The notes under the pieces were generated by a model. The model was not told the origin of the DNA. It ran no database searches and saw only the letters and a program-made list of their open reading frames with translations. Source: a virus. From it: DNA of 64,000 bases. This document shows positions 27,796-53,553 of the stretch, one piece after another. The DNA lies in the IMG/VR virus record IMGVR_UViG_3300032236_001082, positions 48,159 to 112,158 of that record. The stretch is one strand, 5' to 3'. The translations under genes and the position numbers were made by a program. Each line of letters starts with the position of its first letter. Position 1 is the stretch's first letter.

Positions 27796-28131
27796 TTATT
27801 TTTTATAGAATGGGCTGCTGTAATCTATATAGCCCACCTCTAGATTTCCTCTCGTACATTGGAACCCAAGTGCATCATCAGGTTTAAATCCATCATCTTC
27901 ATACATAAGTTCAAAGCCAAACTCATCAGTTTCTCTGTTATATGTAACGCACATAGCACTACCATTATTTGTTATAAAATCATTTGGCCAAACTTGCTCG
28001 TTAAGCAGTTCGTCAAACATGGAAGCTGGAACTGACAGCTTGCCGTTATGTTTTAATATAGCAACTAAAGCTGACGTAGCTCTGAGTCTTTGGAATACTT
28101 CTTCTAGCTGAGATTGATCTGCTTCTTTCAC
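27796..28131 (-). CDS. hypothetical protein
   Basis: ORF track. Confidence 0.6.
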   Translation of the reverse strand: MKEADQSQLEEVFQRLRATSALVAILKHNGKLSVPASMFDELLNEQVWPNDFITNNGSAMCVTYNRETDEFGFELMYEDDGFKPDDALGFQCTRGNLEVGYIDYSSPFYKK

Positions 28132-39976: not shown

Positions 39977-40558
39977 TTACTCTATGATACCATCATTTCT
40001 ATTATAAATGAAGCACTGGATGGTTATTCTAAACCTATCGGTTGTTTTGACTGGGGCTGTTCCATGATCCAGCCCGCCTTCATTTACTGTGCACAAATTA
40101 AAGGATGGTAGGATAGCTTTCCACTCTTCCCCATCTTGCCACATAAACATACCGCCATCATCATATTCCCAAACCCTGTTTAAATAGACAGTAACAGCTT
40201 TGCCAAAATGGTTATCGGTATGCCTTGGGATATAGGAATCTTTTGTCCAAACATATAAATTTGCCACACTGACTGGCATATGTTTATTTGGATCAAATAT
40301 ATTTGCTGCCTCCAGTGCACTTTCAAATTTACCAAGATCTTCTTTATTCATTTCAATTACAAATACAGAAGTACTGTCGTCTCTAGCATCTATAGGCCAA
40401 GCCCAATTTGATGACACCCTCGTTATTTCTGTGTTTTTACCATACATAACATCATTTGCGTAATTATAAAGCTTGTCAGCAAAATCTTCATCAAGTAAAT
40501 TTTTATAGATCAGCATACTTGCCTCTTTTGCCATCTTTCCTATAATTTTTCTTATCAA
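39977..40558 (-). CDS. 2OG-Fe(II) oxygenase (EGLN/P4H-like)
   Basis: HTD, VYLNRVWEYDDGG, HGT..V, RITIQ; true start probably 40534 or 40516. Confidence 0.85.
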   Translation of the reverse strand: MIRKIIGKMAKEASMLIYKNLLDEDFADKLYNYANDVMYGKNTEITRVSSNWAWPIDARDDSTSVFVIEMNKEDLGKFESALEAANIFDPNKHMPVSVANLYVWTKDSYIPRHTDNHFGKAVTVYLNRVWEYDDGGMFMWQDGEEWKAILPSFNLCTVNEGGLDHGTAPVKTTDRFRITIQCFIYNRNDGIIE

Positions 40559-41066
40559 TGGAATAAGCTATACCTGCTCTTGGAACCGTTAAACTTTTAA
40601 CCCCGTGTTTCATGGAGTCTGGAAGAAATATCACATCGCCAGGATTTAATGTATAACTAACTTCTGTTCCATCAAAACGAAACACAGTCCAATAAGTTTC
40701 TCCAACACAGCTCCAATGAATTTGCTCACATGGATCTTCATGTGGTCCCAAGCCACTTCCTTCGCCTAGAACTTCTGTCATAATAATGGCTGGCTCATCC
40801 CATAATGTATCTCCCCATACTTCATAGAGATTTGATCTAAAATAAGAAAAAGCTTCGTTATCAGAAAGAATTGGCGATCCGTCATAATCAAAACTAATAG
40901 AAAGCTTAAAGTCATACTCCCAACGAGTATCAACAGCAACTTTAGATTTTTCTCTAAAGTCTAAAAATTCATCAAAAGACACAACATTTGGAAAAGCGTT
41001 CCTAAAAACAAACTCTTCTTGTCCGTCTTTTACTTCATTAAATTTATCTATAAATTCTTTATTCAT
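40503..41066 (-). CDS. JmjC/cupin 2OG hydroxylase (YcfD/ROXA-like core)
   Basis: GLGPHED, G...W, LNPGDVIFLP...HGV; start MNKEF at 41066. Confidence 0.8.
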   Translation of the reverse strand: MNKEFIDKFNEVKDGQEEFVFRNAFPNVVSFDEFLDFREKSKVAVDTRWEYDFKLSISFDYDGSPILSDNEAFSYFRSNLYEVWGDTLWDEPAIIMTEVLGEGSGLGPHEDPCEQIHWSCVGETYWTVFRFDGTEVSYTLNPGDVIFLPDSMKHGVKSLTVPRAGIAYSIDKKNYRKDGKRGKYADL

Positions 41067-42030
41067 TAATATTCCAATACTTTTCTGACACTTCAGCATA
41101 TACCTGGCTGTAGCTTTCCTTATTATACATCTCTATAAATTTAAAATCAGTATTTGAAACAGCATAAGAATCTAACTCGTGCTTATAAGAATAGTTAATC
41201 TCTGATTTAATTAAATAAAACTTTGTAGATTCTTTGGCAAATATTCCATTTAAAAATGCTGTGCCTGCTATGCCAGCTATATGGGTTGCATTATACATAT
41301 AAGATGCTTGCTCTACAACAGTCTTCCCGCTCATTTCAAGCACTTCATAGCCTTCAGATTTAAAGAAATTTTCTATAGCATCATGATAGAACATTGGTGC
41401 ATGCCTTAATGGGTCTTCACCATTATTAAATTTTTCAATTAATTCACTTCTTTTTTTCCTGCTTAAAAATATTTTTTTAGGTAAAGATTGATCTTCTTTT
41501 AATTTACTGGAGTAGTATGTTTTCAGCTCTTTGTTTATTAATTCATTGTCATGCTGGAATAAATCTTTAAATATATAATTATCTATTTTTAATCCTGGAA
41601 CAAATCTTGATGAATAAAAAAAAGTAATTAAATTTTCAAATACTATTTCTGTATTAAAAAATTCTTCTGGGGTCATAACAATATCTTTATCTAATTTAAA
41701 AAGATTTAAAGATTCTTTTCCAATTACACTAAAACTATTTGAGTCATGAGCATTGCTTGGTAAGACTTGATTTAACCAAAGTATATTAATATCTGGATCT
41801 ATATTATTTTTATAATACAACATTGGACCAATACTTTCTTGCAAGTAGTGTCCATAATAATAAGGATTTGCAATTACCATCCATTTGCCAGATAAGTGCT
41901 TATTACTTTTACCTTTATTTATTATAAGATTTTTAAATGTATAAATAGGACCGATGCCTTGATGTTTTTCAATACTCATCCCGTCATAGTTTGGATATTC
42001 CAGACCAGCTGCACCGACTATTTCATGCAT
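41059..42030 (-). CDS. glycosyltransferase family 61 (DUF563)-like
   Basis: YYGHYL.E, KIFLSR..R, EQA..M.NATHIAG.AGTAFLN.IF. Confidence 0.78.
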   Translation of the reverse strand: MHEIVGAAGLEYPNYDGMSIEKHQGIGPIYTFKNLIINKGKSNKHLSGKWMVIANPYYYGHYLQESIGPMLYYKNNIDPDINILWLNQVLPSNAHDSNSFSVIGKESLNLFKLDKDIVMTPEEFFNTEIVFENLITFFYSSRFVPGLKIDNYIFKDLFQHDNELINKELKTYYSSKLKEDQSLPKKIFLSRKKRSELIEKFNNGEDPLRHAPMFYHDAIENFFKSEGYEVLEMSGKTVVEQASYMYNATHIAGIAGTAFLNGIFAKESTKFYLIKSEINYSYKHELDSYAVSNTDFKFIEMYNKESYSQVYAEVSEKYWNINE

Positions 42031-42032
42031 TT

Positions 42033-42638
42033 TTAATCAAGCCAACTTACTACAGCATATCTATGTCCATTATAAACATTATTTACTGAGTGGTTATATA
42101 CATAAGAAGATGGGAATACCAATAGATCATTGGCTTTAGGTTTATATATGACTCCAAATCTAGGAAAAATAATTTCTCCGCCGTCGTAATCATCGTTTAA
42201 ATAATAAATTACAGAAACAGTTCTTGGAAATTCTAAACAATCATCCAAATGATTTCTAAAGTATTCTCCTTCTCCATAATTTAAAATACTCCATAAATCA
42301 TGCGATCTAGTCTCTACACCAAAATCACCCTTGTAATGTTCTTCTACTGGGGTGAAGTATTTGTACATAACAGAGCCAAGTTTTATTTGTAAATCTTCCC
42401 ATTTATCTTTTCCAGTTTCTGGCGGGTTTTTGGAAAGCTCGTATGGAATTCCAGAAGTCTTTAACTTTCTAACGTGATAATCAACTATGTTGTATCCATC
42501 ACTTATTATCATGGGCTCCCCCCATTGAAAATTTTCTGATTCAAACAAAGATCTTATTTCTTTGTACTGTTCATCAAAATTATCAATAACATTTTGATAC
42601 ACACGAAGGCCAGGGCCTATCTCTTTATATTCCATCAT
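42033..42638 (-). CDS. prolyl 4-hydroxylase-like 2OG-Fe(II) oxygenase
   Basis: Y..GEYFRNHLD, RTVSVIYYLNDDYDGGEI.FP, FPS.Y.Y.HSV, G.RYAVVSW; start MMEYK at 42638 overlaps the upstream stop. Confidence 0.9.
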   Translation of the reverse strand: MMEYKEIGPGLRVYQNVIDNFDEQYKEIRSLFESENFQWGEPMIISDGYNIVDYHVRKLKTSGIPYELSKNPPETGKDKWEDLQIKLGSVMYKYFTPVEEHYKGDFGVETRSHDLWSILNYGEGEYFRNHLDDCLEFPRTVSVIYYLNDDYDGGEIIFPRFGVIYKPKANDLLVFPSSYVYNHSVNNVYNGHRYAVVSWLD

Positions 42639-44982
42639 TTTCATCCATTTCTTGTTGTATAATTTCATCAATAATTTCAGATCCTGGCACAGGAAATACC
42701 GCAAAGCCTGGAGGGCTGAAGAACCCTGGTGGCGCAAAGAACCCTGGTGGGGTGAAGAACCCTGGCGGGGTAAAAAAACCTGGTGGGGTAAAGAACCCTG
42801 GTGGGGTGAAGAACCCTGGTGGGGTGAAGAACCCTGGTGGCGCAAAGAACCCTGGTGGGGTGAATGTACCTGGGTAGACAACAAAGCTTGGTGGTGGAGA
42901 AACCGCAGGTGTGACCGCAGGTGTGACCGCAGGTGTGACAGAAGTAACTGATGGAGTTACCGCTGGAGAAACGTTTCCTCCTCCTGGGTATACAACAAAG
43001 CTTGGTGGTGGAGAAACCGCAGGAACTACGGCTGGAGTGACGGCTGTAACAGCTGGTGTAACGGATGTTACAGAAGGTGTAACAGCACCAGGATTTGGTC
43101 CACCACCAGGATAAACAATTCCTGTTACAGATGGCGTGACAGATGTAACGGCTGGGGTAACGGCTGTGACAGCAGGCGTAACAGATGCTGCTGCTGATGC
43201 AATGATTGTACTACTGTAATAGTAATGTGTAGTTCCTGATAAATCAACAACAGTATCTCTAACTGCAAAAATGTATGGAGGGTATGCTGCATCTAGTGGC
43301 ATAACTACATAATATCCGCTAGTGTCTAGTGGCACTCCCGACCCACTGTTTGGTGTAAAAGTATTTCCAACCAATGCTGAAGTAACGCTAGCATAATTTT
43401 GATAAGTTCCACCACTCCAAGTTATAGCAGTTCCTACAACACCAGATCCTTGAATTGTTGGAGAAGAAGACTGTGACAAAACTGGCGGGACAACACTAAT
43501 ATCATTTGATTGTGTAGACAAAGAGCCATAAGCGTTTGTAGCAGTTACAGTACAATGCACACCAAAGTTTGGATAAAGACTATGAAAATTAGGTGCAAAT
43601 GTATAACTGCTTGATGTAGCTCCTGGCAATGGTTTGTATACATATCCAGTTGGGCTAAAGTAGTACCATTGATAGGTATAAGTAATAGGAGTTGCCCCAC
43701 TATATGTGCCAGGACTTACTGTGGCAGTAGCACCTTCATAAACAGTGCTTGGTGACGCAACTGGGGCTGATATTAAAGTTAATTGCGGACTAGTTCCATC
43801 CATAACTGAAACGATATCGGTATAAGCTACGACACCATTGTTTCCAGTAGCTACTGGGTTATTAGCTGTTACCTTACAAAGTAAACCAAAATTTTTAAAT
43901 AAAGAATTAAAATTCCATGGAGGAGAATAAGAACTTGTATAGGCTCCAATACTTTGATAGGTAAGATCACTTTGTCTAAGGTACTGCCAATCATACGACA
44001 GTGTTATTGGCGCATCTCCCGTCCAAGTTCCACCATTTGTACTAAAAGTTGTTATTCCTGCAGTTGGATCTACTCCACTAGGGGTATATGTTATAGAAGG
44101 TTTAGTTTTATTTACTGGAATTGAAGACGCTGTAAACAATCCATAATTTGTAGTTAAAGAAATACCCTGAGTTAAACCAGAAAAATCTGTACCTGAATTA
44201 AATTGAGTTTCTACAGCATAAAAATACATACCACTATTTGTTGGGTCTTGTCCTAAATCAAAGTTTGCTATAGAGCCATAACTTGTTCCGTCTGAGGACT
44301 CATAGCTAATTTGACTAATTGTTTGATATACAGTTCCACCTGTTGTTCCAGGGGAAGAACTTCTATACAAAGTTATTGTTGATCTTGTAGTATCTGGAAG
44401 ATAGCCAGCAGATGAATCCCAGGTAGAGTTGTATTGAAGTATATTTAAAATTTTTGTAAATGATGCACTGATGCTACGTGGTGGATTTCTATGCACAAAT
44501 ATTTGAATTGGTAGTGAGTTATCATCTCCAATAATATCTGTTGTTGTGGTATTAGCTTGAATATCAAACGTAATATAAGTTCCATCATAGTTAAAACTAG
44601 ATGTACTTAAAGGAATGTTTACTGGGTTATTATAAGTTCCAGTGTCGCATGCAACGCCTAATTGATTAGGAATTGGAGAAGAAAAAACGGTGTACTGATA
44701 GTTTGTTATAACATATCCGTTTGGAACCCAAACACCTTTTTGCCCATAAAGGCTTGTGCTGGTTATTATGATATCATTTCTGGCGTATGCTGTTGCGCCA
44801 TCTGATGCTGAAGTAGAAAAATAAGGAGATGTTGTAGTATAAGGTCCTGATTTTGGCCAGAATTGAACCCAACCTTTTGCAGCCTTTACAAATCCTTTTT
44901 TAACTTTTGCCCAGCCAGAATCGGTTTTTACTTTAAAATTGGTAACGTTTTGCCAGCTACCGCCATTAACTCTTAAACCCAT
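42625..44982 (-). CDS. minor tail/fibre protein with Ig-like domains and Thr/Pro- and PPGFF-repeat C-terminus
   Basis: N-terminal ..G.W..V....K....W fibre-adaptor motif; repeated GTW/Y.YQW/CxVTAxN Ig-like units; last gene of the tail module. Confidence 0.75.
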   Translation of the reverse strand: MGLRVNGGSWQNVTNFKVKTDSGWAKVKKGFVKAAKGWVQFWPKSGPYTTTSPYFSTSASDGATAYARNDIIITSTSLYGQKGVWVPNGYVITNYQYTVFSSPIPNQLGVACDTGTYNNPVNIPLSTSSFNYDGTYITFDIQANTTTTDIIGDDNSLPIQIFVHRNPPRSISASFTKILNILQYNSTWDSSAGYLPDTTRSTITLYRSSSPGTTGGTVYQTISQISYESSDGTSYGSIANFDLGQDPTNSGMYFYAVETQFNSGTDFSGLTQGISLTTNYGLFTASSIPVNKTKPSITYTPSGVDPTAGITTFSTNGGTWTGDAPITLSYDWQYLRQSDLTYQSIGAYTSSYSPPWNFNSLFKNFGLLCKVTANNPVATGNNGVVAYTDIVSVMDGTSPQLTLISAPVASPSTVYEGATATVSPGTYSGATPITYTYQWYYFSPTGYVYKPLPGATSSSYTFAPNFHSLYPNFGVHCTVTATNAYGSLSTQSNDISVVPPVLSQSSSPTIQGSGVVGTAITWSGGTYQNYASVTSALVGNTFTPNSGSGVPLDTSGYYVVMPLDAAYPPYIFAVRDTVVDLSGTTHYYYSSTIIASAAASVTPAVTAVTPAVTSVTPSVTGIVYPGGGPNPGAVTPSVTSVTPAVTAVTPAVVPAVSPPPSFVVYPGGGNVSPAVTPSVTSVTPAVTPAVTPAVSPPPSFVVYPGTFTPPGFFAPPGFFTPPGFFTPPGFFTPPGFFTPPGFFTPPGFFAPPGFFSPPGFAVFPVPGSEIIDEIIQQEMDENDGI
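42701..42864 (-). repeat. 18-bp tandem repeat encoding (PPGFF[T/A/S])x8 plus PPGFA
   Basis: Plus-strand unit ~gaaccctggtggggtgaa; variation mostly synonymous. Confidence 0.95.
42865..43185 (-). repeat. degenerate repeats encoding VTP[A/S]VT[A/S] and SPPPSFVVYPG
   Basis: Translation of 42625..44982. Confidence 0.9.
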
Positions 44983-44991
44983 TTTATTCCT

Positions 44992-47900
44992 TTAGTATGT
45001 TACGTACAGGTCTCCAACAAAGCCTGTACCCGTTGAACCAACTGCTGGACCCGATCCGCTGTTTACATAAATATTTCTAACGAAGCCTATCGTTCCTACT
45101 ATATCAGTTGCGTTTCTAACTCTCATGTTACCATTTAAATAAATATATCCATTAGGACTATTTCCTATAATAACGTCACTACTGTCCAAGTATATCACGC
45201 CAGTACTTATAGCTGCAAATGATTGTCCAACTACCTGCTGAGTAATTACTCCATTATTATCCGCATGGTTCCAAATAGTTGAAGACCCATCTGGATCTAT
45301 AGAAATAAGCGGAACTGCTCCTCTGCCTTGATTGCTACCAAAAACTTGAAAAGCTTTTGCTGTACTTAATACGGTGTATCCATTAGATGTAATTTGTCCG
45401 TTACCAAAAGAAGTAGTAGTATCAATAGCAGCTGCAGAAGCTGAGGTTTGATTAATTACTCCTCCACTGTTAGATGCACTGAATGTAACCAAAGAACCTA
45501 AAGCGGATGATCCAGCAGAATATGTCTGCAATTGAGCTCCTGCTGAATCTAAAGAAACATAAGAGTTAGATCCTTTAGATCTTAAATAGCTACTTGTGAT
45601 TGTCCAACCAGTAGTATCACTTCCTATGTAACCTTCAGTTGCAGTTACTTTACCCTTTATTGTGGCAGAACTTGCTGTTACATTACCAAGATGATCCACA
45701 AAGAACTTAGGTATTGTATCTAAAGCTCCTACGCTTATTGCATAACCATTTGAAGTGGAAGACCCGCCATAAATTCTAACACCATAATTATTTTGCGTTG
45801 CATTATAATCAGTTGGATAAGCAGTTATAGTTCCATTTGCAGAGCTTAATTCTAGCTGACCAGAATATATCTTTCCAGCTTTAACAATCCATGCTCCTGA
45901 TGCTCCAGATAAACTTCCAAGATAAGCAGAGTTTGTAGCAAGGGTAACTCCATCTTCTCCTATAGGGCTAGATGATATTTGTGTTGTTACTGTTGAGCCA
46001 TTTGGAGATGCTATGATACCCGCACCACCCATTTTTACATAAGCACTTCCTGGGCCATTTACAATTAAATAACCAGAAGATCCAATGGTAACGCTGCTGT
46101 TAAAATTAGAAGCTTGATTGACTGTTATGGAACCAGTAATGGTTGCTTTGCTTGCAGTGATGCTTCCATCTCCATAAACATAAAATCCAGTGCCTGCACT
46201 AATTAATGTGTCTGAGCCAACGCCACTACCTATAATTTGGATGTTTCTTGCTACTACTGCTCCACCTGGTGTTACTGTAAACTTAGCTTGTGAGTCACCA
46301 CCGCTTGTTGCAGACCCCGCCCAAAATGAATATGTGCCAGTAGCAGACATTCCTACGTAGTTTGAAGCAGATCCTAATGTATTTTGGATCTGAGTACTGT
46401 TGATTGACCAATCGGCAATTTTTGCATTAGTAGTTTCAAATGTATAACTAGATGCTCCTGGGTTTGTAATTATTGCAGTTGACGCTGGGGTTGAAGCTGT
46501 TGAACCATAATCAAAAGCAAATATACCAGAATAAGCTGATGTGCCATCTGGACCTTTATTGCCTGAAGGACCCAATACAATTCTTGAGCCTGTTGTTGCA
46601 CTATTGCCAACAAATATTGATCCGCCACCACCAATTTGCACAGCATTTTGAATAACAGATATTGATGGGTTTGTTGGAGTAACTTGATATACTATAGAAT
46701 TTTGCGAAGGAGAATCGTAAATATCATAGTATCTTAAAATCAAATAACCAGTTGCATATAAATTATCGAATACGCTTGCTGGGCCTGTGCCTGAATAAAC
46801 CAAAGACTGCATGTGATAATTGCCAGCTGCTTGCTGAGTTAAATTGTTGTTGACCGTAATCGTATATGGGCCAGAACCAGTTATAGAGGTAACCCAAGTA
46901 TTTGTAGGAATACCAGTTCCAGTTATTGGATATCCAACATAGGTATTTACAGTCTTACCAGTTGGTAATGTAAATCCGCCATTTTCCATTGAAATTGAAT
47001 TAACAACAAAAGTTTTTTGACCAGACGCTCCACCAGAAGCAAATGTTGCATCCATATAATCTGGCATGTCAACTGTTGCGAATGATCCAGTTGGGTCAAT
47101 AAAGAATTGATATACTTCACCATAAGATGCGCCAGTTGTTCCAAGAGCAAACTGTACGTTATAACCATCAATTACATTTGTGATAGTTGCTACTGGCACT
47201 ACCGATCCTATAGAACTAGTTCTGCTAAATGTAGTTATATTCTGAACAGTAGAGCTTTCTGTTCCATACTGGGATTGCAAAACAAACGTTCCGCTATAAG
47301 ATTTATAGTATTGTCCAAACTGTGCGAATATTAAATTCTTAGGGATTGTAAATGATGTTTCTGTTTTACTTGCTATAGTGTGATAAAAGAAGCCAGATAG
47401 ATTATTAGCTGCAGTTGGAACTAATTTAACTTTAACTGTTACTGGTTTATTTAAATCTGAATCTACTATAGAGGGAAGTGTATAGGTTACTACTACATCA
47501 TCTCCCGCCCCGTTATTTGAAAATGATGCTGAGACATTAGTGGCATTTGCTGGTGGTAAATTGTTTGCTGGAAGCAGAGCAGTTGGTGTTGCTTCTACGT
47601 AATTTGAATAAGCAGACTTTGCACCAGTTGTTTCCATGAACCAAGCTCTTACATATCTATGAGCCCCGTCTGCAGCAAATACAGAAGCTGGGCTTATGGT
47701 CTTTGGCTCTCCTACCTGAACCCAACCAACGCTTGATGCAGCAGCAGCTGTGTCCACCTGAGCAGATGTCAATCCAGTGGTCGGGTAAACAAACTCTTGA
47801 ATGATTTCAGATAAAAAATTGCCATTTGGAGTAGCTTTTGCTGCGTCTATATTTGTTGTAGTAATTATGTAAGAAGATGTTGCATCTGCTTCTGTGATTA

Positions 47901-48522
47901 TTGGTGCTGGAAGTAATGACTGGTAGGTATTTGATATGGCTGCCTTAACATACCCCGCTGTTTGAAGTGCCCCGTCATAAGTTGCAACCTCAACATAGTT
48001 AAATGAAACTGAATTTGCAAACCCACTATCCGTGCTTTTTATAGTTACCGTTTGATTTACGGATCCAAAAGATAAAAGTGATTTATCATATGAAGGACTA
48101 ATTACTGTAAAGGTTGTCCCACCGTCAAGGCTAACTCCGACATTAAAATTAAGAAAGAATTGATTTTGAGGATCCGACATGTCGAAATCAAAAGTAAGAA
48201 CAAGATCGCTGCCAACATACGATGCAGTCAAGTTTGCAACTTGAAGTGGTGCTGTACCTGGAAGTGGTTCTGGGTTTGTTCCTCCTTGGCTAGGAGTTGA
48301 ATCTGTATTAGGGCTACTAAATGAAGCTGCTTGGATTCCCACAAGCATTGCACTGATGTTTTTATTTAAACCAATTGGAGATATATAACCATTCCATCTT
48401 GATTGTTTAAATGGAGCCGTAATAGAATTAGCGGTTGGATCTAAATTTATGTCAATAGGAATCGGCTGTCTTCTAGCAGAAGACGAGTCCGATATGTAAG
48501 TAGGATTTAAATTAATTTGCAT
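44992..48522 (-). CDS. minor tail protein
   Basis: Beta-rich; G.I.A..A.I.G.I.A..G.I..W.I repeats typical of siphovirus tail tip/fibre proteins. Confidence 0.8.
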   Translation of the reverse strand: MQINLNPTYISDSSSARRQPIPIDINLDPTANSITAPFKQSRWNGYISPIGLNKNISAMLVGIQAASFSSPNTDSTPSQGGTNPEPLPGTAPLQVANLTASYVGSDLVLTFDFDMSDPQNQFFLNFNVGVSLDGGTTFTVISPSYDKSLLSFGSVNQTVTIKSTDSGFANSVSFNYVEVATYDGALQTAGYVKAAISNTYQSLLPAPIITEADATSSYIITTTNIDAAKATPNGNFLSEIIQEFVYPTTGLTSAQVDTAAAASSVGWVQVGEPKTISPASVFAADGAHRYVRAWFMETTGAKSAYSNYVEATPTALLPANNLPPANATNVSASFSNNGAGDDVVVTYTLPSIVDSDLNKPVTVKVKLVPTAANNLSGFFYHTIASKTETSFTIPKNLIFAQFGQYYKSYSGTFVLQSQYGTESSTVQNITTFSRTSSIGSVVPVATITNVIDGYNVQFALGTTGASYGEVYQFFIDPTGSFATVDMPDYMDATFASGGASGQKTFVVNSISMENGGFTLPTGKTVNTYVGYPITGTGIPTNTWVTSITGSGPYTITVNNNLTQQAAGNYHMQSLVYSGTGPASVFDNLYATGYLILRYYDIYDSPSQNSIVYQVTPTNPSISVIQNAVQIGGGGSIFVGNSATTGSRIVLGPSGNKGPDGTSAYSGIFAFDYGSTASTPASTAIITNPGASSYTFETTNAKIADWSINSTQIQNTLGSASNYVGMSATGTYSFWAGSATSGGDSQAKFTVTPGGAVVARNIQIIGSGVGSDTLISAGTGFYVYGDGSITASKATITGSITVNQASNFNSSVTIGSSGYLIVNGPGSAYVKMGGAGIIASPNGSTVTTQISSSPIGEDGVTLATNSAYLGSLSGASGAWIVKAGKIYSGQLELSSANGTITAYPTDYNATQNNYGVRIYGGSSTSNGYAISVGALDTIPKFFVDHLGNVTASSATIKGKVTATEGYIGSDTTGWTITSSYLRSKGSNSYVSLDSAGAQLQTYSAGSSALGSLVTFSASNSGGVINQTSASAAAIDTTTSFGNGQITSNGYTVLSTAKAFQVFGSNQGRGAVPLISIDPDGSSTIWNHADNNGVITQQVVGQSFAAISTGVIYLDSSDVIIGNSPNGYIYLNGNMRVRNATDIVGTIGFVRNIYVNSGSGPAVGSTGTGFVGDLYVTY

Positions 48523-48538
48523 CCCATCCCCCTATCTA

Positions 48539-49069
48539 TTATTTATGACCTAATGCAATCCAGTTAATGTTTACTGATCCTGTGCCTAGCCATGAACCAT
48601 CTTTAGCTGTACCGCCAAATGCAGTATGGTTGGCAGTTGTAATTCCAGATTTTCTCAAAACAATTTGAAAAGAAGATTGGTTAACTGTCCCGACTGTAGC
48701 AATTAAATCTTGCACTGACGTATTAGTTAAAGATGTTGTTACTGGGGTTAATATAATTGTTGGGCCCTTAGCGTCTGTAAAAGGGATTGCTAGGTTTATA
48801 GTTTTTGAATAGTAGTAGGCATTGCTAGCACCATTAAAGGTAGCACCAGTAGCCAAGCTTATTGTACTTGTACCATACATTATTTGCTGAGAAGATATAT
48901 CAAACTGAGTTTGTGTTGTAGAGTCAGCAGTGCTAGTTGAGGCATAGATGCTTCCAAAGTTATTTGTAATAGCAGATATGTTATCGCTATGTTGATTGAC
49001 CACGTTAATTATCTGGTGGATAGTTGGAAGATCAATGATCTTTGGATCTGATATTTTTATGTATGCCAT
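48539..49069 (-). CDS. minor tail protein (H-type lectin-like C-terminus)
   Basis: PF...P.I.LT...F.I...INWIALG. Confidence 0.7.
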   Translation of the reverse strand: MAYIKISDPKIIDLPTIHQIINVVNQHSDNISAITNNFGSIYASTSTADSTTQTQFDISSQQIMYGTSTISLATGATFNGASNAYYYSKTINLAIPFTDAKGPTIILTPVTTSLTNTSVQDLIATVGTVNQSSFQIVLRKSGITTANHTAFGGTAKDGSWLGTGSVNINWIALGHK

Positions 49070-49091
49070 TTTATCTCCTTATGTTATATAA

Positions 49092-49100
49092 ATTATACCA
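49092..49100 (-). promoter_or_regulatory. extended -10 promoter
   Basis: TGGTATAAT with downstream AAGGAG RBS. Confidence 0.65.
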
Positions 49101-49110
49101 TTTTATAGGT

Positions 49111-52100
49111 TTATTTATTAATTCCTCTATTTAGCATGTTTAGAGTAAGCTTTGTTGTTAGTCCGTTATTATAATTATTAGATACAGAATGGACTATATA
49201 CTTCTGTGCATTTATCCCCATCAAAGGATAGGTTAGGCCAATTACATCCCCCACCTCAATTAAAGGGTTTCCGAATATGCTTAGGGTTACGTCTTTTGAA
49301 AAGTTATCCACTCCCGCTGCAACGACCTTTAAAAGCTTTCCAGCAGCGTCTCTGGACTGTATGAAGGAGGAATCTAACTGAACTACCTCCCCTACGTTAC
49401 CCTGGTCTGTAACTACTTCTATTATCTCTGGATCTGAGGGTACTACGATTTCGTGTGTCCAAAGGTTTAAATTAACTACAAAGGCATTAAGCTCATCTGA
49501 ATCTTTCTTTAAATAAACCATGTGAGTGCTATTATTTGCTACAGCAAACTTAGCTCTAAACCCAGTATTAATTGGGGTTGAATAGGCTGCTGAATACTCA
49601 TCAACTATTTGATGCTGCAAGAACTGTTGCTCAAGTAGGGTGTTTCCTGGATAATAAAACCAAGCATATTCAACTGGCAAGATATCAACGGAAACAGCAG
49701 CTCCATTTGTATACTGGACATCGTAAGTATTTATTCCAATAATTTCTGGCTGCGTCTGCATTATATACTCTTTATACAAAGAAAATGTTCTCTGGCCTTG
49801 GATCATCGCATTTAAAAATTCACGGTCTTGGAAGTAGTAGTTTACGCTTCTTTCTTTTAATGTTTTTTGAGAAGCATAGATCTCTCTTAAATATCCCACA
49901 TTACCTTTAGTAGTAAAATTATTAGAGGCTGGGTAAGGTACATTATCGTTTGTGCCAGTAAGTGCTGGTGGGTTAGCTGAGAAGAAAGCACCGAACTTAG
50001 CATTAGTGTTTCTAGTAGGAGCAACAATAATCTTTTTTCTTAGATTAGTTATACTGTTTTTATCAGTACTGACCCAATCATTTCCAGATTTAACCTGCCA
50101 GCCTTGAATCTCAAAGTTATTTAAAAATACTGAAAGCGCAAAACCATTACCAGTCAAAGCTCCATTTGCGTCGTAGGTTGATTGTCCAACAGGACCTTCT
50201 CCGTCTGAAGCGTTATCAAATGGAACCAAAGTGCATCTAAGGTGAAATGCTTCATGAGGATCACTATATAATGTATAAGCATCTGACCCATCAGCTTTTG
50301 AAGCAGAAGCATTCTTTTTATAAAGTTTTTCAAAATTAGAAAGTATGTTATAAACAGTTCCACTTACATTAGAATAAGCAACTATAGATGAGGCCCCGCT
50401 TACGATTTTGTATACTATTAAGCCATAAACATAATTGTGATTTGGGCTTGTTCCTATGTCTGACTGCACGAGCTCTACAAAATACGCCCCTTCAGTTGAA
50501 GAACTGGTTGCGTTAAAGAATAGACCTCCAGAGCATAGATTGCTTGTCCCATTTAAACCAAACTTTACAGAATAAGTATTATAATTAAGATCTACATCTG
50601 AAGTTGGATAAAATATTACTTTACTATTTATATCTGGATTTGCCTGTACATAATAATATGGCAATTGAACTGCTGAGTTATTAGGGTCTGTCTGAGTTGT
50701 AACTATTGAATAATTGCCAGATTGAGCTGCTATACCGTAGCTAGAATTTACGGTAGAAGCAGAAAGACCCTTGCTTGCTAAATCACTTATAATCTTATGA
50801 TCAGAAACGTTTGTTCCAAATAAACCTCTGTTGATATTTGTTATCTTTCCAGTGGGAGTTATCTTAACGTCATAGTCTTGTCCTTTTGATACCCGTCCCT
50901 TTGTCCAGCCAGCAGTCATGGAATCTGCTGAACCAGTTACCAATGTAAATGAATTTATTCCAGTTGCAATAACTTGGCCAGACATATTTAATGATTCTGG
51001 ACTCATGCCAGTAACTGAAACCAGGCTGCCTACGGTAAACGAAGATGATGGGTGAGGTACTTCTGTAGTTGCGGTAGAGGATACGTGATACACAGTAGTC
51101 TTTTGAGTATTGCCTTTTACAGTTGCTGTAGACGGGGTGGCTGAGTCAATAACCCCAACATTTGGAATTAATCCAATCTCATTATCTTTGATAAACTTAC
51201 TTACTGCTGCTGCCAACTCTAGATCGTTTTTGACGGATACAGTAGTGCTAACAGATCCATTTGATGATTGAGATATTGTATACTCTTTGTAAATAAATGA
51301 AACTATTTCATCTTCTATTACAGCGTATCCGTCGTTATTTAAATTAAACGTATGGAATGAATCAAGCAAGTCTGCTTGATTAATAGAGAAGCTACTATCA
51401 GCTACTGCCATATTAGAAGCAAGATAATTAAGTCCAACAGAATCAACGCTTTGCTGAGACCACACAACGTCATTACTTGTAGTATAAATATAAGATGGAC
51501 CAATTTTGATATCAGCGTTTGTAACATTTTGAAGAGATAAAGATTGCTTAAGCTTTGGAGTTTGATATCTTAAAGATATTTTTCCAGGCTTTGATTTGTT
51601 ATTTATAGTATATCCATTTTGCAACACTATATTCTGATCTAGATCAAAATTAGTTGAGCTTTGTTGAAGTTTTAATATATTAGACAGACTTAGGAACTTC
51701 ATAACTCCATAGTTATCTATGTATGCTCCTATTTGATAAGGCAAGAATATCTGGTTTAATGCCTCAATAAGTGTAGAGCTTTTAGAGTTACAGAAATAAT
51801 AATCCATATTTAAAGGAGTATTTAAATCATAGCATACGCTATACAAAGAATCAATATCATAATCAGTAAAGCCAGTTAGATCCAAAATGTTAGTTATTAC
51901 TTCAAAAGCATCTTTGAAGTTAGCAACATAATCAGTTACTGGGGTTGACTGCAGGTATCTAGTTATGTCATAGCATTGAACTACAACAGTATCTATATCA
52001 TTTTGCTGCCAGGTATCCGAATACCAGACCCCGCCAGGGATTATCTTATTAACCTGCTGGTCAACGTAAGAGCTATCTATATAGTCTACTAAATTATAGT

Positions 52101-53553
52101 TAACATAAAACTTTACATTCTTTCTCATAATATCTTTTAAGACGCTTGATGAGATATTGCTTACGCTAGAAAAAATAGGAACGGGGTTTGTTATATCTCC
52201 CAAAGGAATTCCAGATAGAGTAATAGTAGCGTCATCAGTTACTACAGTTGATATTGGCAAATATGTGTCTTTGCTATCTAATGACTTATTTGTTGCTACG
52301 TCTATTAGATAAGGGGTAAGATCAACTTCTAATCTCGGAGAAACTTCAACCACATTCAAGAGCCCCATATCATTTAAAACGTTTGCATTTGATGTGTTAA
52401 ATACTGTTGCTCTTGCATTTGCGACTAATCCTGTTACGGTAATGCTCTTAATATATACATAGTTTGTTACATCCCCGCTGCTTGTAAACCCTGGCATGGT
52501 TGACCATTTATCTTTAGTCAGAGTATTATTATTTAGATAAAGGATAACCATTCCGTTATCATCTGGAAGTATGGAGTCTGAAATTATCTGAGACCCGTCT
52601 GACTTTGTAACAGTTACTTTTATGCCAGGAACAGAAAGGTATGAGTTAAGCTTTACCACAACCTTGTTCATTGCAATTGGAGTTTGATAAAATCCAGTGA
52701 TTGATGGAGTATCAACATTATCTGATATAAAATATCTATACGAGGATATATCCGTCATTAAGCCATGCTTATAAATTGGAAGAGGGGCTGAGGAATGGAA
52801 GAAGCTTGGAGTTGAGACCACTGGGCTTACTGGCATGTAAAATGGATTAGTAGTGTAAGACTTAAGTAAGCTAGCAGTCTTTACTCTTCTGAAATCATCA
52901 GGAAACACAAAATTATTATTACCAGTTCTTACATAGGATTCACCTGGTCTAAAACCAGCAAATGCTGTTTCTGTAGACCAAACCGATCCGTATGTGTAAT
53001 CAAATGAAGTTGTTGCATATACCTCTGGCTTAGTATAATATACTAATGGGTTTTCTGCAGATGTGCTAAATTTATTAAATATAAGCTGTAAGGTAAATGA
53101 TGATATAGTGTCATTAGCTCCTACATATAATTCTAGCTTGGTCCAGTTATAAGAGTTTGCTTCTACGTTATTTGAGCCAAACTGTCTGCTTACCGACCCT
53201 TTTGCATAAGCATTAACCATTATTGGTGTATTAGATGCTGTTGTAACGTATGTAACAATCTTATATGCTTTAGACAGAGTTTGGGAGGATGGAGTTGCTG
53301 TATATAAAACTTGATCATTAGATCCTGTCATCTGAAAAGAAAAGGTATCAAAATAAGGATGTTTATTAGAATCTGTAACCGCTGTTACCGTGCCAGAAGT
53401 TTTTACTATACTTACGGGAGTTCCATCCCCCGCCACTGTGAGATAGGGGTGATTAAAAACATTTTGATTCCACTCAGCAGAAACTATTGGAAGAAGTTTT
53501 ACTGAATTGGATTTTAAAAAAATATCATTGCTTACACCAGATACGGTTAACAA
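49111..53553 (-). CDS. large minor tail (tail tip/hub) protein
   Basis: Follows TMP/Dit; C-terminal GNPLIEVGDVI hub motif. Confidence 0.8.
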   Translation of the reverse strand: MLTVSGVSNDIFLKSNSVKLLPIVSAEWNQNVFNHPYLTVAGDGTPVSIVKTSGTVTAVTDSNKHPYFDTFSFQMTGSNDQVLYTATPSSQTLSKAYKIVTYVTTASNTPIMVNAYAKGSVSRQFGSNNVEANSYNWTKLELYVGANDTISSFTLQLIFNKFSTSAENPLVYYTKPEVYATTSFDYTYGSVWSTETAFAGFRPGESYVRTGNNNFVFPDDFRRVKTASLLKSYTTNPFYMPVSPVVSTPSFFHSSAPLPIYKHGLMTDISSYRYFISDNVDTPSITGFYQTPIAMNKVVVKLNSYLSVPGIKVTVTKSDGSQIISDSILPDDNGMVILYLNNNTLTKDKWSTMPGFTSSGDVTNYVYIKSITVTGLVANARATVFNTSNANVLNDMGLLNVVEVSPRLEVDLTPYLIDVATNKSLDSKDTYLPISTVVTDDATITLSGIPLGDITNPVPIFSSVSNISSSVLKDIMRKNVKFYVNYNLVDYIDSSYVDQQVNKIIPGGVWYSDTWQQNDIDTVVVQCYDITRYLQSTPVTDYVANFKDAFEVITNILDLTGFTDYDIDSLYSVCYDLNTPLNMDYYFCNSKSSTLIEALNQIFLPYQIGAYIDNYGVMKFLSLSNILKLQQSSTNFDLDQNIVLQNGYTINNKSKPGKISLRYQTPKLKQSLSLQNVTNADIKIGPSYIYTTSNDVVWSQQSVDSVGLNYLASNMAVADSSFSINQADLLDSFHTFNLNNDGYAVIEDEIVSFIYKEYTISQSSNGSVSTTVSVKNDLELAAAVSKFIKDNEIGLIPNVGVIDSATPSTATVKGNTQKTTVYHVSSTATTEVPHPSSSFTVGSLVSVTGMSPESLNMSGQVIATGINSFTLVTGSADSMTAGWTKGRVSKGQDYDVKITPTGKITNINRGLFGTNVSDHKIISDLASKGLSASTVNSSYGIAAQSGNYSIVTTQTDPNNSAVQLPYYYVQANPDINSKVIFYPTSDVDLNYNTYSVKFGLNGTSNLCSGGLFFNATSSSTEGAYFVELVQSDIGTSPNHNYVYGLIVYKIVSGASSIVAYSNVSGTVYNILSNFEKLYKKNASASKADGSDAYTLYSDPHEAFHLRCTLVPFDNASDGEGPVGQSTYDANGALTGNGFALSVFLNNFEIQGWQVKSGNDWVSTDKNSITNLRKKIIVAPTRNTNAKFGAFFSANPPALTGTNDNVPYPASNNFTTKGNVGYLREIYASQKTLKERSVNYYFQDREFLNAMIQGQRTFSLYKEYIMQTQPEIIGINTYDVQYTNGAAVSVDILPVEYAWFYYPGNTLLEQQFLQHQIVDEYSAAYSTPINTGFRAKFAVANNSTHMVYLKKDSDELNAFVVNLNLWTHEIVVPSDPEIIEVVTDQGNVGEVVQLDSSFIQSRDAAGKLLKVVAAGVDNFSKDVTLSIFGNPLIEVGDVIGLTYPLMGINAQKYIVHSVSNNYNNGLTTKLTLNMLNRGINK

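What the first reader, a model, noticed from the sequence alone, without database searches (positions are those of the whole stretch)
39977..44982. Candidate phage-encoded hydroxyproline/glycosylation system: repeat-tailed fibre protein followed by P4H, GT61, JmjC and a second 2OG oxygenase
Seen: the last tail-module gene (785 aa, Ig-like) ends in mucin-like VTP[A/S]VT repeats, SPPP motifs and (PPGFF[T/A/S])x8. It overlaps the start of a prolyl-4-hydroxylase-like gene, followed with gaps of a few nt or overlaps by a GT61-like glycosyltransferase, a JmjC hydroxylase and another 2OG oxygenase. Known: P4H enzymes prefer X-Pro-Gly and Ser-Pro-n; GT61 includes protein O-GlcNAc and xylosyl/arabinosyl transferases; hydroxylation followed by glycosylation of Pro is the plant/algal extensin and protist Skp1 logic. 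Inference: substrate and tailoring enzymes are encoded together to decorate a virion appendage (host-range tuning, protease shielding, adhesion). I am not aware of this being characterised in tailed phages.
Basis: partly seen in the sequence, partly recalled or inferred. Interest (0 to 1): 0.88.

Follow-up and report, generated by a model that had tools for sequence, protein, structure and literature searches.

The report
Phage fibre repeats with hydroxylase/glycosyltransferase genes
An uncultured 112-kb long-tailed phage ends its last tail gene in proline-rich repeats and encodes a collagen-type proline hydroxylase, a sugar transferase and two more oxygenases right behind it; this pairing of repeat and hydroxylase recurs across hundreds of phage fragments, so the repeats are a testable candidate target for the abundant phage 'prolyl hydroxylase' genes, but no chemistry has been shown.

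Summary
The 785-aa last tail-module protein (42625-44982, minus strand) ends in VTPxVT/SPPP tracts, eight PPGFFx units plus a degenerate ninth (PPGFAV), and a short acidic tail. Four tightly packed or overlapping genes follow: a P4H/PHD-type 2OG oxygenase, a GT61 glycosyltransferase, a small JmjC/ribosomal-oxygenase-like cupin and a second 2OG oxygenase.

- The same genome holds a second PPGFF-tailed protein, followed by a GT60 (Skp1 hydroxyproline GlcNAc-transferase family), a paralogous P4H, two DUF6065 genes and five more oxygenases.
- Of 56 PPGFF genes fetched by DNA pattern alone, 53 have such enzymes within 1.5 kb downstream and 0 of 54 have them upstream.
- 17 of 19 loci holding relatives of the window's P4H have an X-Pro repeat protein just upstream.
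- A syntenic relative keeps (VTPA)n, the P4H and the JmjC-like gene but has no PPGFF, GT61 or second oxygenase gene.

Most likely the enzymes hydroxylate, and here probably glycosylate, the fibre's Pro-rich tail. This rests on gene position and family membership only. GT61 itself is not conserved next to repeats.

The literature search found no characterisation in tailed phages. The closest precedents are the PBCV-1 prolyl hydroxylase and the in-silico Syn9 dioxygenase array. This scan has already noted the same system in at least 35 other genomes.

The parts
42625..44982 (-). Last tail-module gene: 785-aa fibre-like protein with a Pro-rich C-terminal tail (10.6% Pro overall)
   Evidence: ORF and translation. 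Position after the tape measure and minor tail protein. N-terminal GSWxxV motif shared with the 751-aa protein at the same position in syntenic locus L219. No Pfam or PHROG family.
42868..43191 (-). VTPxVT / SPPP tract (residues ~598-705): two blocks of (VTP[A/S]VT)n ending in SPPPSFVVYPG
   Evidence: Translation. TRF 12- and 21-bp repeats at 42902-43083. BLASTP match to the (VTPA)n tract of the L219 fibre.
42697..42864 (-). PPGFFx array: eight PPGFF[A/T/S] units plus a degenerate ninth (PPGFAV)
   Evidence: TRF period 18, 8.8 copies. Unit table. The same array plus end tail is 67% identical to the C-terminus of a second protein of this genome. The DNA pattern for three units hits at least 119 IMG/VR contigs.
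42628..42696 (-). C-terminal end after the array (VFPVPGSEIIDEIIQQEMDENDGI); holds the place that a Hint/intein-like domain, a Cys-rich end or a short FxPPAFK end holds in relatives
   Evidence: Hint support in relatives: PF14890 E=6e-8 and PT-HINT E=5e-4, both below Pfam's cut-offs, plus a C-terminal HN.
42033..42668 (-). P4H/PHD-type 2OG-Fe(II) oxygenase ('P4Hc1'); possible starts at 42668, 42644, 42638 or 42635, all inside the fibre's 3' end
   Evidence: PF13640 57.1 bits. phrog_61 6e-23. PDB sequence hits to EGLN1/PHD2, Bacillus anthracis P4H and PiuC, E 5e-4 to 3e-3. HxD...H invariant across paralogues, with a basic residue (R195 in the P4Hc1 type, K in the P4Hc2 type) after the distal His.
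41059..42030 (-). GT61-family glycosyltransferase, 323 aa
   Evidence: PF04577 40.9 bits, profile 1-136 of 137. 10 homologues at 34-78% identity, all carrying PF04577. No match to solved structures by sequence or profile.
40503..41066 (-). Small cupin/JmjC (ribosomal-oxygenase-like) Fe(II)/2OG oxygenase; 187 aa from the ATG at 41066 (the ORF opens at 41099)
   Evidence: Weak JmjC_2 hit. Homologues of 171-196 aa, several with PF08007 precomputed. Invariant H109-x-D111...H154. AF2 model pLDDT 87.8; Foldseek finds AlkB, YcfD, NO66/MINA53, best TM 0.63-0.67 to YcfD.
39977..40558 (-). Second 2OG-Fe(II) oxygenase-like gene (193 aa from TTG; an ATG lies at 40534)
   Evidence: PF13640 24.2 bits, below the cut-off of 27. 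phrog_274 3e-7. HTD...H...R motif visible in the translation. Weakest assignment of the four.
44992..60008 (-). Context: tail module upstream (tape measure 54066-60008, minor tail protein 49111-53553, 1176-aa protein 44992-48522)
   Evidence: PHROG tail families. ORFs.

Best explanation
The locus most likely encodes a self-contained tailoring system for a virion appendage. The substrate would be the exposed Pro-rich C-terminal tail of the last tail-module protein. Shown: the genes, their families, their intact metal-binding residues, their operon-like packing, and a strong two-way, orientation-specific association of Pro-rich repeat genes with P4H-type oxygenase genes across diverse phage contigs. 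Inferred: (1) the fibre and the four enzymes are made together late in infection; (2) the P4H-like enzyme uses Fe(II), 2-oxoglutarate and O2 to turn Pro into hydroxyproline, most probably in the X-Pro tracts (VTPxVT, SPPP), which are what relatives of this particular paralogue always sit behind, and possibly also in PPGFFx; (3) the GT61 enzyme adds a sugar to the new hydroxyl groups or to the many Thr/Ser residues; (4) the JmjC/ribosomal-oxygenase-like cupin and the second oxygenase hydroxylate other positions (a second Pro carbon, or a beta-carbon of Phe/Val/Thr). The product would be a stiff, hydrophilic, protease-resistant, extensin- or mucin-like rod or brush at the tail tip. The same genome runs a parallel, larger system on a second PPGFF-tailed FN3 protein: GT60, paralogous P4H, two DUF6065 proteins and five more oxygenases.
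For: (a) Families and catalytic residues.
(b) Packing: overlaps of 11-44 nt, a 2-nt gap, and 8-56 nt, with no convincing internal terminator.
(c) Second locus in the same genome: FN3x3-(PPGFFS)n protein with the same end tail (67% identity over 92 aa), followed by an unknown 240-aa protein, GT60 (PF11397, 58.5 bits), a P4H paralogue, DUF6065 x2 and five PF13640 genes.
(d) Repeat to enzymes: the DNA pattern for 3x PPGFFx, which uses no enzyme information, hit at least 119 viral contigs. 53 of 56 PPGFF genes with at least 1.5 kb downstream have an oxygenase/DUF6065/GT60 gene within 1.5 kb downstream, against 0 of 54 upstream. With at least 6 kb downstream there are 3-9 enzyme genes (median 7); upstream the median is 0.
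(e) Enzymes to repeat: 51 of 53 loci fetched with the P4Hc2 paralogue have a same-strand Pro/Phe repeat ORF upstream (PPGFF or PPFF/PFF type). 17 of 19 loci fetched with the window's P4Hc1 type have an X-Pro repeat ORF ending at most ~1.1 kb upstream ((TP)n, (VTPA)n, (PVAP)n, (PD)n, some with PPFF as well), although these P4Hs share only a median 44% identity. Only 6% of ORFs in these loci are such repeats.
(f) Syntenic relative L219-L222: tail genes, a 751-aa protein with (VTPA)n, a small Cys4 protein, a P4Hc1 orthologue, the JmjC-like gene, then the same metallophosphoesterase as in the window.
(g) Accessory enzymes in relatives act on hydroxyl groups or peptides: GT60 directly behind repeat genes, sulfotransferase, Asp/Asn beta-hydroxylase.
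(h) Precedent: PBCV-1 P4H acts on virus-encoded Pro-rich repeats (Eriksson 1999, cited). The Skp1 pathway pairs a P4H with a GT60 (papers listed).
Against: No chemistry: nothing shows hydroxyproline or sugar on any of these proteins. The association is positional, and part of it may be inherited synteny rather than repeated independent linkage. The module boundary behind tail genes is also a common site for accessory genes. The genome carries at least 13 P4H-like paralogues, several far from any repeat gene, so adjacency is easier to get by chance here. The GT61 relatives that could be fetched (30-37% identity) sit next to radical SAM/SPASM, DUF6065, 2OG and GT4 genes and not next to a repeat gene. 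JmjC-like relatives in L215-L218 also lack an adjacent repeat gene. DUF6065, the most faithful partner of the oxygenases, has a dUTPase fold, which does not obviously fit protein modification. Iyer et al. 2010 read similar phage arrays as secondary-metabolite pathways. The fibre's presence in virions is inferred from gene position only.
Confidence: 0.55

Rival explanations
1. The repeat tract is a precursor rather than a permanent fibre part (RiPP-like, or a Hedgehog-like processed product). The oxygenases tailor the PPGFFx/X-Pro cores, and the tract is then cut off or transferred. In relatives this would be done by the Hint domain that follows the repeats; here it would be done by cleavage near the conserved VFPVPGS end. 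The product would be modified peptides or a C-terminally linked adduct. The repeat is still the substrate; only its fate differs.
For: Many relatives carry a Hint/intein-like domain directly after the repeats (Cys or Ser at +1, C-terminal HN; PF14890 E=6e-8, PT-HINT E=5e-4). Some PPGFF ORFs are only 60-138 aa. A radical SAM/SPASM enzyme sits next to GT61 relatives. The post-repeat end is conserved between the two proteins of this genome.
Against: The window's protein has no Hint domain or protease nearby. The repeats are fused to large FN3/Ig-type bodies inside tail-fibre gene blocks. No transporter, leader-type recognition domain or cyclase was seen. Both Hint hits are below Pfam's cut-offs.
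Confidence: 0.15
2. The enzymes are accessory genes unrelated to the fibre. They would make or alter a small molecule or a host protein, as Iyer et al. proposed for cyanophage dioxygenase arrays (secondary metabolites), and they sit behind the tail genes only because module boundaries collect such genes.
For: Tandem dioxygenase arrays with a MINA-like JmjC protein and a dUTPase-fold protein with a conserved Cys were described in cyanophage Syn9 without any repeat substrate. P4HA is counted among the most widespread viral 'AMGs', with its role called cryptic. This genome has many scattered 2OG paralogues. GT61 and JmjC-like relatives occur away from repeat genes.
Against: The strict order and strand (repeat gene first, enzymes downstream: 53 of 56 against 0 of 54), the reciprocal 51 of 53 and 17 of 19, and persistence across P4Hs of about 44% identity and across quite different repeat chemistries and tail modules are hard to explain by a hotspot alone. 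The GT60 and P4H/PHD families have known protein-modifying members.
Confidence: 0.15
3. The enzymes act on nucleic acid or nucleotides (DNA hypermodification followed by glycosylation), or on host cell-wall glycans.
For: DUF6065 has a dUTPase/dCTP-deaminase fold (Z about 10). The JmjC-like model also resembles AlkB. PHROG labels some of these families as nucleases, probably wrongly. Phage 2OG oxygenases with glycosyltransferases are a known DNA-modification theme (own knowledge).
Against: None of the oxygenases meets the Tet/JBP model (best 15.1 bits against a cut-off of 34.9). The best sequence matches are prolyl hydroxylases. DUF6065 has no invariant Asp among its conserved residues. This rival does not explain the link to repeat genes.
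Confidence: 0.07

Closest known systems
Chlorovirus PBCV-1 prolyl 4-hydroxylase and the virus's own Pro-rich repeats (Eriksson et al. 1999, J Biol Chem 274:22131; cited in PMC9301287)
   Same: A virus-encoded P4H-type Fe(II)/2OG oxygenase together with virus-encoded Pro-rich repeat proteins as candidate substrates.
   Different: PBCV-1 is a giant virus of algae. Its enzyme was assayed on peptides, and enzyme and substrate genes are not arranged as a cassette. Here the virus is a tailed phage, the substrate gene lies directly upstream, further oxygenases and glycosyltransferases are attached, and nothing has been assayed. Sequence similarity to PBCV-1 P4H was not seen or tested here; the best PDB sequence hits were PHD2 and Bacillus anthracis P4H.
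Tandem dioxygenase array of Synechococcus phage Syn9, gp41-gp54 (Iyer, Abhiman, de Souza & Aravind 2010, PMC2938197)
   Same: A phage gene array combining several families of classical 2OG oxygenases, one MINA/NO66-type JmjC protein and a dUTPase-fold protein with a conserved cysteine. That composition is matched here by the P4H paralogues, the JmjC-like gene and DUF6065 (invariant C37, dUTPase fold).
   Different: The Syn9 array includes tryptophan halogenases, was not linked to any repeat protein, and was read as a secondary-metabolite pathway. Here a Pro-rich structural protein gene always precedes the array, and glycosyltransferases are present. Only remote homologues (at most 38% identity) of the P4H occur in sequenced cyanophages, and DUF6065 finds none.
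Skp1 prolyl-hydroxylation/glycosylation pathway of Dictyostelium and Toxoplasma (PhyA P4H + Gnt1 GT60; e.g. PMC3515798, PMC11570480)
   Same: A cytoplasmic P4H paired with a GT60 enzyme that puts GlcNAc on the new hydroxyproline. The second locus of this genome, and several relatives, pair a P4H-like gene with a PF11397/GT60 gene.
   Different: Skp1 carries one modified Pro and serves oxygen sensing. Here the target would be long repeats on a virion protein. The window's own transferase is GT61, not GT60.
Plant/algal hydroxyproline-rich glycoproteins (extensins with Ser-Pro3-5, arabinogalactan proteins with Ala/Ser/Thr/Val-Pro; e.g. PMC11252719)
   Same: SPPP and [V/A/S/T]-Pro motifs of the kind the fibre carries, and the logic of hydroxylation followed by O-glycosylation to give stiff extended rods.
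   Different: These are eukaryotic secretory-pathway enzymes. GT61 is not among the hydroxyproline glycosyltransferases known to me in plants (own knowledge). PPGFFx has no counterpart.
Virion glycosylation in mycobacteriophages (Freeman et al. 2023, Cell Host Microbe 31:1216; cited in PMC12801897)
   Same: Phage-encoded glycosyltransferases modifying the phage's own virion proteins.
   Different: From my own knowledge of that paper, which I did not read here: the targets are capsid and tail-tube proteins, and no hydroxylases or hydroxyproline are involved.

Membership tests
P4H/PHD-type 2OG-Fe(II) oxygenase (Pfam PF13640) | Profile match above the curated cut-off | tested here: met
   57.1 bits against a cut-off of 27 for 42033-42668. 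PDB sequence hits to PHD2/EGLN1, B. anthracis P4H and PiuC.
P4H/PHD-type 2OG-Fe(II) oxygenase (Pfam PF13640) | HxD...H iron triad and a basic residue binding the 2OG C5 carboxylate | tested here: met
   H132, D134 and H185 are invariant in 16 paralogues/orthologues. R195 is invariant within the P4Hc1 type; the P4Hc2 type has K at that place.
P4H/PHD-type 2OG-Fe(II) oxygenase (Pfam PF13640) | Peptidyl-proline 4-hydroxylation activity | not testable with these tools
   Needs an enzyme assay. The family also holds enzymes with other substrates.
Glycosyltransferase family 61 (Pfam PF04577) | Profile match above the curated cut-off | tested here: met
   40.9 bits against a cut-off of 27, profile 1-136 of 137. 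All 10 homologues carry PF04577.
Glycosyltransferase family 61 (Pfam PF04577) | N-R-R (in Proteobacteria G-R-R) constellation for UDP binding (PMC13123520) | tested here: inconclusive
   The family alignment has invariant R142, R191, R209 and N166, N261.
JmjC / ribosomal oxygenase (ROX: YcfD, NO66, MINA53; Pfam PF08007) | Profile match above the curated cut-off | tested here: not met
   17.2 bits against a cut-off of 22, over 34 residues only. Some homologues carry a precomputed PF08007 hit.
JmjC / ribosomal oxygenase (ROX: YcfD, NO66, MINA53; Pfam PF08007) | DSBH fold with an HxD/E...H triad | tested here: met
   H109-x-D111...H154 invariant. Model pLDDT 87.8. Foldseek E about 1e-7 to AlkB, YcfD, NO66 and MINA53, with TM 0.63-0.67 to YcfD. 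The fold does not separate ROX from AlkB-like enzymes.
JmjC / ribosomal oxygenase (ROX: YcfD, NO66, MINA53; Pfam PF08007) | ROX dimerisation and winged-helix domains after the catalytic domain | tested here: not met
   The protein is 187 aa and consists of the DSBH core only. YcfD chains are about 360-390 aa. It is best called a minimal cupin oxygenase that resembles ROX, not a member.
Second 2OG oxygenase (39977-40558) as PF13640 | Profile match above the cut-off, and the iron triad | tested here: inconclusive
   24.2 bits against a cut-off of 27. HTD...H...R is visible in the translation. No homologue alignment or model was made.
Conserved phage cassette: Pro-rich repeat protein followed by P4H-type oxygenases (this scan's recurrent system) | Repeat gene directly upstream of the P4H-like gene on the same strand, at the end of a tail/fibre block | tested here: met
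   Window. Relatives: 53 of 56, 51 of 53 and 17 of 19.
Conserved phage cassette: Pro-rich repeat protein followed by P4H-type oxygenases (this scan's recurrent system) | DUF6065 partner gene and Hint domain on the repeat protein | tested here: not met
   Neither is present in the window's cluster. DUF6065 x2 is present at the genome's second cluster. The window's locus is a reduced, glycosyltransferase-bearing variant.

The most novel reading that the evidence does not exclude
Tailed phages of lakes and seas build hydroxyproline-rich glycoprotein-like appendages. Modular enzyme sets would be matched to the chemistry of the repeat: X-Pro tracts with a P4Hc1-type hydroxylase plus GT60/GT61 or sulfotransferase, and PPxFF tracts with a P4Hc2 + DUF6065 + four- to five-oxygenase battery that may also hydroxylate Phe. 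These sets would convert the C-terminal tails of fibre proteins into heavily hydroxylated, glycosylated polyproline-II rods. That would give a function to a large part of the orphan 'P4HA/2OG oxygenase AMGs' of aquatic viromes, and it would be an extensin/mucin-like chemistry in prokaryotic viruses.
Probability: 0.35. Interest if true: 0.9.

Novelty: new variant of a known kind. Interest (0 to 1): 0.78.

Why it matters
P4H-like 2OG oxygenase genes are among the most widespread 'auxiliary' genes in aquatic viromes, and their use has been called cryptic (PMC9301287). This locus and its many relatives name a concrete, co-encoded candidate substrate, so the question becomes testable with peptides, co-expression and virion mass spectrometry.

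If confirmed, it would show that tailed phages chemically remodel their receptor-facing appendages by hydroxylation plus glycosylation or sulfation. That bears on host range, virion stability and immune or protease evasion. It would also supply a compact set of bacterial-type prolyl hydroxylases and Hyp/Thr glycosyltransferases for making collagen- or extensin-like materials.

Tried and rejected
- **Phage record searches.** DNA and protein searches of GenBank phage records with the locus, the fibre and GT61 found nothing. DUF6065 also found nothing. The P4H paralogue found only cyanophage 2OG oxygenases at 38% identity or less.
- **Single-protein locus scans.** Scans for GT61 and the fibre in IMG/VR found nothing. 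Near relatives appear to be withheld from these collections.
The contigs of the closest GT61 homologues (78-53% identity) and JmjC-like homologues (84-62%) could therefore not be read. The only hint that they travel together is that homologues of both are recorded on contigs of identical length, 23,949 and 109,009 bp.
- **Fibre homologue search** returned only Ig/FN3-body relatives without Pro-rich tails, and did not list the query itself; candidates were capped at 8000.
- **Exhaustive HMMER search with the 94-aa C-terminal module** gave 95 mostly low-complexity hits of little use. The DNA pattern search was far more informative.
- **Co-folding** of the P4H-like enzyme with the 94-aa C-terminal module gave no verdict (score 0.02). 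This is neither support nor evidence against.
- **The 1176-aa upstream tail protein** has no match in five complete ~110-kb phages that carry the PPGFF cassette, so those phages have different tail modules.
- **GT61 profile against solved structures:** no match, so the N-R-R hallmark could not be mapped.
This could not be checked here.
- **Collagen-type triple helix for PPGFFx** was considered and set aside. Gly falls only at every sixth residue, and related tracts (PPFF, PFF) lack Gly altogether.

Full report
**Setting.** The window is bases 48159-112158 of a complete 112,158-bp IMG/VR virus record with direct terminal repeats. Almost all genes lie on the minus strand. Upstream of the finding, PHROGs identify a head-tail adaptor, an Ig-domain protein, a 1980-aa tape measure (54066-60008) and a minor tail protein (49111-53553). 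A 1176-aa protein and then the 785-aa protein of the finding follow. A metallophosphoesterase and replication genes (DnaB-type helicase) come next.

**Observation.** All five ORFs are present.
- The fibre has two blocks of VTP[A/S]VT units that each end in SPPPSFVVYPG, at residues ~598-705.
- Eight PPGFF[A/T/S] units plus a degenerate PPGFAV follow, at residues 709-762, and then a 23-residue acidic end.
- TRF reports an 18-bp period with 8.8 copies.
- The next gene is a P4H/PHD-type 2OG oxygenase: PF13640, 57.1 bits. Its PDB sequence matches are PHD2, Bacillus anthracis P4H and PiuC. The HxD...H triad is invariant and a basic residue follows the distal His.
- Every plausible start codon of that gene lies inside the last 11-44 nt of the fibre gene.
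- A GT61 follows after 2 nt (PF04577, 40.9 bits).
- Then comes a 187-aa cupin whose Pfam JmjC_2 hit is sub-threshold. Its family keeps an invariant HxD...H, and its model (pLDDT 87.8) matches AlkB, YcfD, NO66 and MINA53, with the best TM-score to the ribosomal arginine hydroxylase YcfD.
- The last gene is a weaker 2OG oxygenase call: 24.2 bits, with the HTD...H...R motif visible.
- The scan found only weak terminator-like matches inside the block.

**A second copy in the same genome.** BLASTP of the five proteins against all ORFs of the genome showed two things.
- A 388-aa protein outside the window (genome 13514-14680, minus strand) ends in about eleven PPGFF[S/A] units and the same kind of end tail. 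It is 67% identical to the fibre over 92 residues.
- The genome holds at least 13 P4H-like paralogues.

The 388-aa protein has FN3 domains and follows a 1065-aa fibre with an Mtd_N domain. Behind it lie, in order: a 240-aa unknown, a GT60 enzyme (PF11397, the Skp1 hydroxyproline GlcNAc-transferase family, 58.5 bits), the closest paralogue of the window's P4H (here called P4Hc2), two DUF6065 genes and five more PF13640 genes. The portal gene follows. Both PPGFF-tailed proteins of this phage are thus followed by a P4H-like gene and a glycosyltransferase from a family with known protein O-glycosyltransferase members.

**From repeat to enzymes.** A degenerate DNA pattern encoding three PPGFFx units, which carries no information about enzymes, hit at least 119 IMG/VR contigs; the scan stopped at its limit.
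- The 80 loci returned hold 77 PPGFF ORFs (68 distinct) of 60-875 aa. Some were checked against Pfam and carry an FN3-type body.
- These proteins end in a Hint/intein-like domain, a Cys-rich end or a short FxPPAFK end.
- phmmer with this genome's enzymes showed a conserved downstream array: P4Hc2 (one to three copies), DUF6065, a further gene (probably a second DUF6065-like gene), then four to five more oxygenases in the same order as in this genome.
- 53 of 56 PPGFF genes with at least 1.5 kb of downstream sequence have an enzyme gene within 1.5 kb downstream, and 34 have one within 150 bp. None of 54 has one within 1.5 kb upstream.
- Where at least 6 kb is available there are 3-9 enzyme genes downstream (median 7), against a median of 0 upstream.

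**From enzymes to repeat.** A scan with an alignment of P4Hc2-type proteins found at least 546 loci.
- Of the 53 best loci with at least 3 kb upstream, 51 have a same-strand Pro/aromatic repeat ORF upstream. It is either the PPGFF type or a Gly-free PPFF/PFF/PPYF type. These ORFs usually sit behind an Mtd_N fibre. The script counted 45; six further loci had been scored as PPGFF.
- A scan with the window's own P4H type (P4Hc1) gave 19 loci at 35-51% identity. Seventeen have a Pro-rich repeat ORF ending at most ~1.1 kb upstream on the same strand.
- The chemistry there is X-Pro: (TP)n, (VTPA)n, (PVTP)n, (APTP)n, (PVAP)n, (PD)n and (PTPPS)n. Three loci have a PPFF stretch in front.
- A small Cys4 protein often lies between repeat gene and P4H; one of this kind gave a weak DUF6171 hit in L159. 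Downstream lie a homologue of the 240-aa unknown plus GT60, or the JmjC-like gene, or further large genes that were not identified here.
- Pro-repeat ORFs are only 6% of ORFs in these loci. The P4Hc1-type proteins share a median 44% identity, and only 2 of 208 pairs exceed 90%.
- These loci share ancestry, so the counts are not independent events. Still, the link survives deep divergence, changes of repeat chemistry and different tail modules.

**The syntenic relative refines the reading.** Loci L219-L222 come from contigs of 38-77 kb.
- They show the same gene order as the window: tail genes, then a 751-aa protein with the same N-terminal motif as the fibre, two (VTPA)n tracts and a Cys-rich end, but no PPGFF.
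- A 127-aa ORF and a Cys4 protein follow, then a P4Hc1 orthologue (51-53% identity), the JmjC-like gene, two small genes, and the same metallophosphoesterase and helicase block.
- No ORF there matched GT61 or the second oxygenase.
- The conserved partners of the window's P4H and JmjC-like genes are therefore the X-Pro tracts. The PPGFF array looks like a module shared with, or copied from, the genome's other cluster.

**Accessory enzymes and DUF6065.**
- In relatives the cassette also holds a sulfotransferase (PF03567), an Asp/Asn beta-hydroxylase (PF05118), luciferase-like monooxygenases and GT60 directly behind a PPGFF gene. These are enzymes that create or decorate hydroxyl groups.
- The distant GT61 relatives that could be fetched (30-37% identity) lie next to a radical SAM/SPASM protein, DUF6065, a 2OG oxygenase and a GT4-type enzyme. 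No repeat gene is adjacent to them, although one of these contigs (L003) carries a collagen-like protein about 7 kb away.
- DUF6065 (model pLDDT 87.7) has a dUTPase fold (Foldseek E 5e-5; VIA Z about 10). It has an invariant Cys and no invariant Asp among its conserved residues.

**Literature.**
- No paper in the library holds 'DUF6065', and none that holds 'PPGFF' concerns phages.
- A Baltic Sea virome study lists P4HA among the most widespread viral auxiliary genes and calls its use cryptic (PMC9301287).
- Iyer et al. [quoted passage not shown] This matches the enzyme composition found here. They proposed secondary-metabolite synthesis. For some bacterial operons they proposed that co-encoded collagen-like or tail-collar proteins are hydroxylated and then sulfated.
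- PBCV-1 P4H with virus-encoded Pro-rich repeats (Eriksson 1999, cited), the Skp1 P4H + GT60 pathway and mycobacteriophage virion glycosylation (Freeman 2023, cited) are the nearest experimental precedents.
- The GT61 hallmark, the N-R-R constellation (PMC13123520), could not be mapped.

**Earlier notes of this scan.** The same kind of system (Pro/Phe repeat protein, often with Hint, followed by P4H-like oxygenases and DUF6065) has been noted and followed up in at least 35 other genomes and at this genome's second locus. Those notes gave me the lead to the Iyer paper, which I then read. Their other claims (actinobacterial hosts; a sister phage lacking both repeats and enzymes) were not tested here.

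**Verdict.** The most likely mechanism is hydroxylation of the fibre's Pro-rich tail by the co-encoded P4H-like enzyme, with further oxidation and glycosylation by the neighbouring genes. This would give an extensin- or mucin-like appendage (confidence 0.55 that the tail is the substrate; lower for each later step). Rivals are a processed or RiPP-like fate for the tract, an unrelated small-molecule or host-directed pathway, and nucleic-acid or glycan targets. What is particular to this window is that it holds a reduced variant without Hint or DUF6065 that carries a GT61, sits on the terminal tail protein, and combines X-Pro and PPGFF tracts. No chemistry is shown anywhere. One tool (look-up of encoding contigs) was closed, which blocked the most direct test of GT61 co-occurrence in close relatives.

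Noticed in passing
window 17943-18635, 22661-23269, 26514-27311, 28128-29075 (all minus strand); further copies outside the window: At least 13 P4H-like 2OG oxygenase paralogues are scattered through this 112-kb genome, by BLASTP to the window's P4H. Several are far from any repeat gene, and their targets are unknown.
   Followed up: partly
G000 genome 5830-17914 (outside the window; locus L013): Second, larger cassette: Mtd_N fibre, FN3x3-(PPGFFS)n protein, 240-aa unknown, GT60 (PF11397), P4H paralogue, DUF6065 x2 and five 2OG oxygenases, then portal, protease/scaffold and capsid genes.
   Followed up: yes
L013:10359-11051:- and relatives (alignment A4): DUF6065 has a dUTPase-like fold (VIA Z about 10) with an invariant Cys and no invariant Asp among its conserved residues. 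It seems to be the 'dUTPase-fold protein with a conserved cysteine' that Iyer et al. 2010 noted in the Syn9 dioxygenase array. Its function is unknown.
   Followed up: partly
L016-L095, e.g. L177:3858-5195:+ and L044:8084-9409:+: In many relatives the Pro/Phe repeat is followed directly by a Hint/intein-like domain (Cys or Ser at +1, C-terminal HN then one residue). This suggests self-cleavage at the end of the repeat. Both proteins of this genome lack it.
   Followed up: partly
L222-L239, just upstream of the P4Hc1-type gene (e.g. L219:7082-7315:+): A conserved ~77-82-aa protein with a CxxC...CxxC pattern sits between the repeat gene and the P4H in most relatives; one of this kind gave a weak DUF6171 hit in L159. 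It is absent from the window's cluster.
   Followed up: no
L003:1899-2756:+ and L004:720-1598:+: A radical SAM/SPASM enzyme lies directly upstream of the distant GT61 relatives, together with DUF6065, a 2OG oxygenase and a GT4-type transferase. This may be a different peptide-tailoring set.
   Followed up: partly
L167:3302-4084:+; L152:2167-2757:+ and L152:4177-5172:-; L025:6981-7775:-: Accessory genes inside related cassettes: sulfotransferase (PF03567), Asp/Asn beta-hydroxylase (PF05118) and luciferase-like monooxygenases (PF00296).
   Followed up: partly
window 12170-13057 (minus strand): A 295-aa protein with a short collagen-like G-X-Y stretch near its N-terminus (GAPGPKGDTGAQGPAGNG); another conceivable P4H substrate.
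   Followed up: no
window 41059-42030 and 40503-41099: The protein database records the window's own GT61 and JmjC-like proteins on a contig of 165,254 bp, longer than the 112,158-bp IMG/VR record. This could be a concatemeric or otherwise different assembly of the same phage.
   Followed up: no
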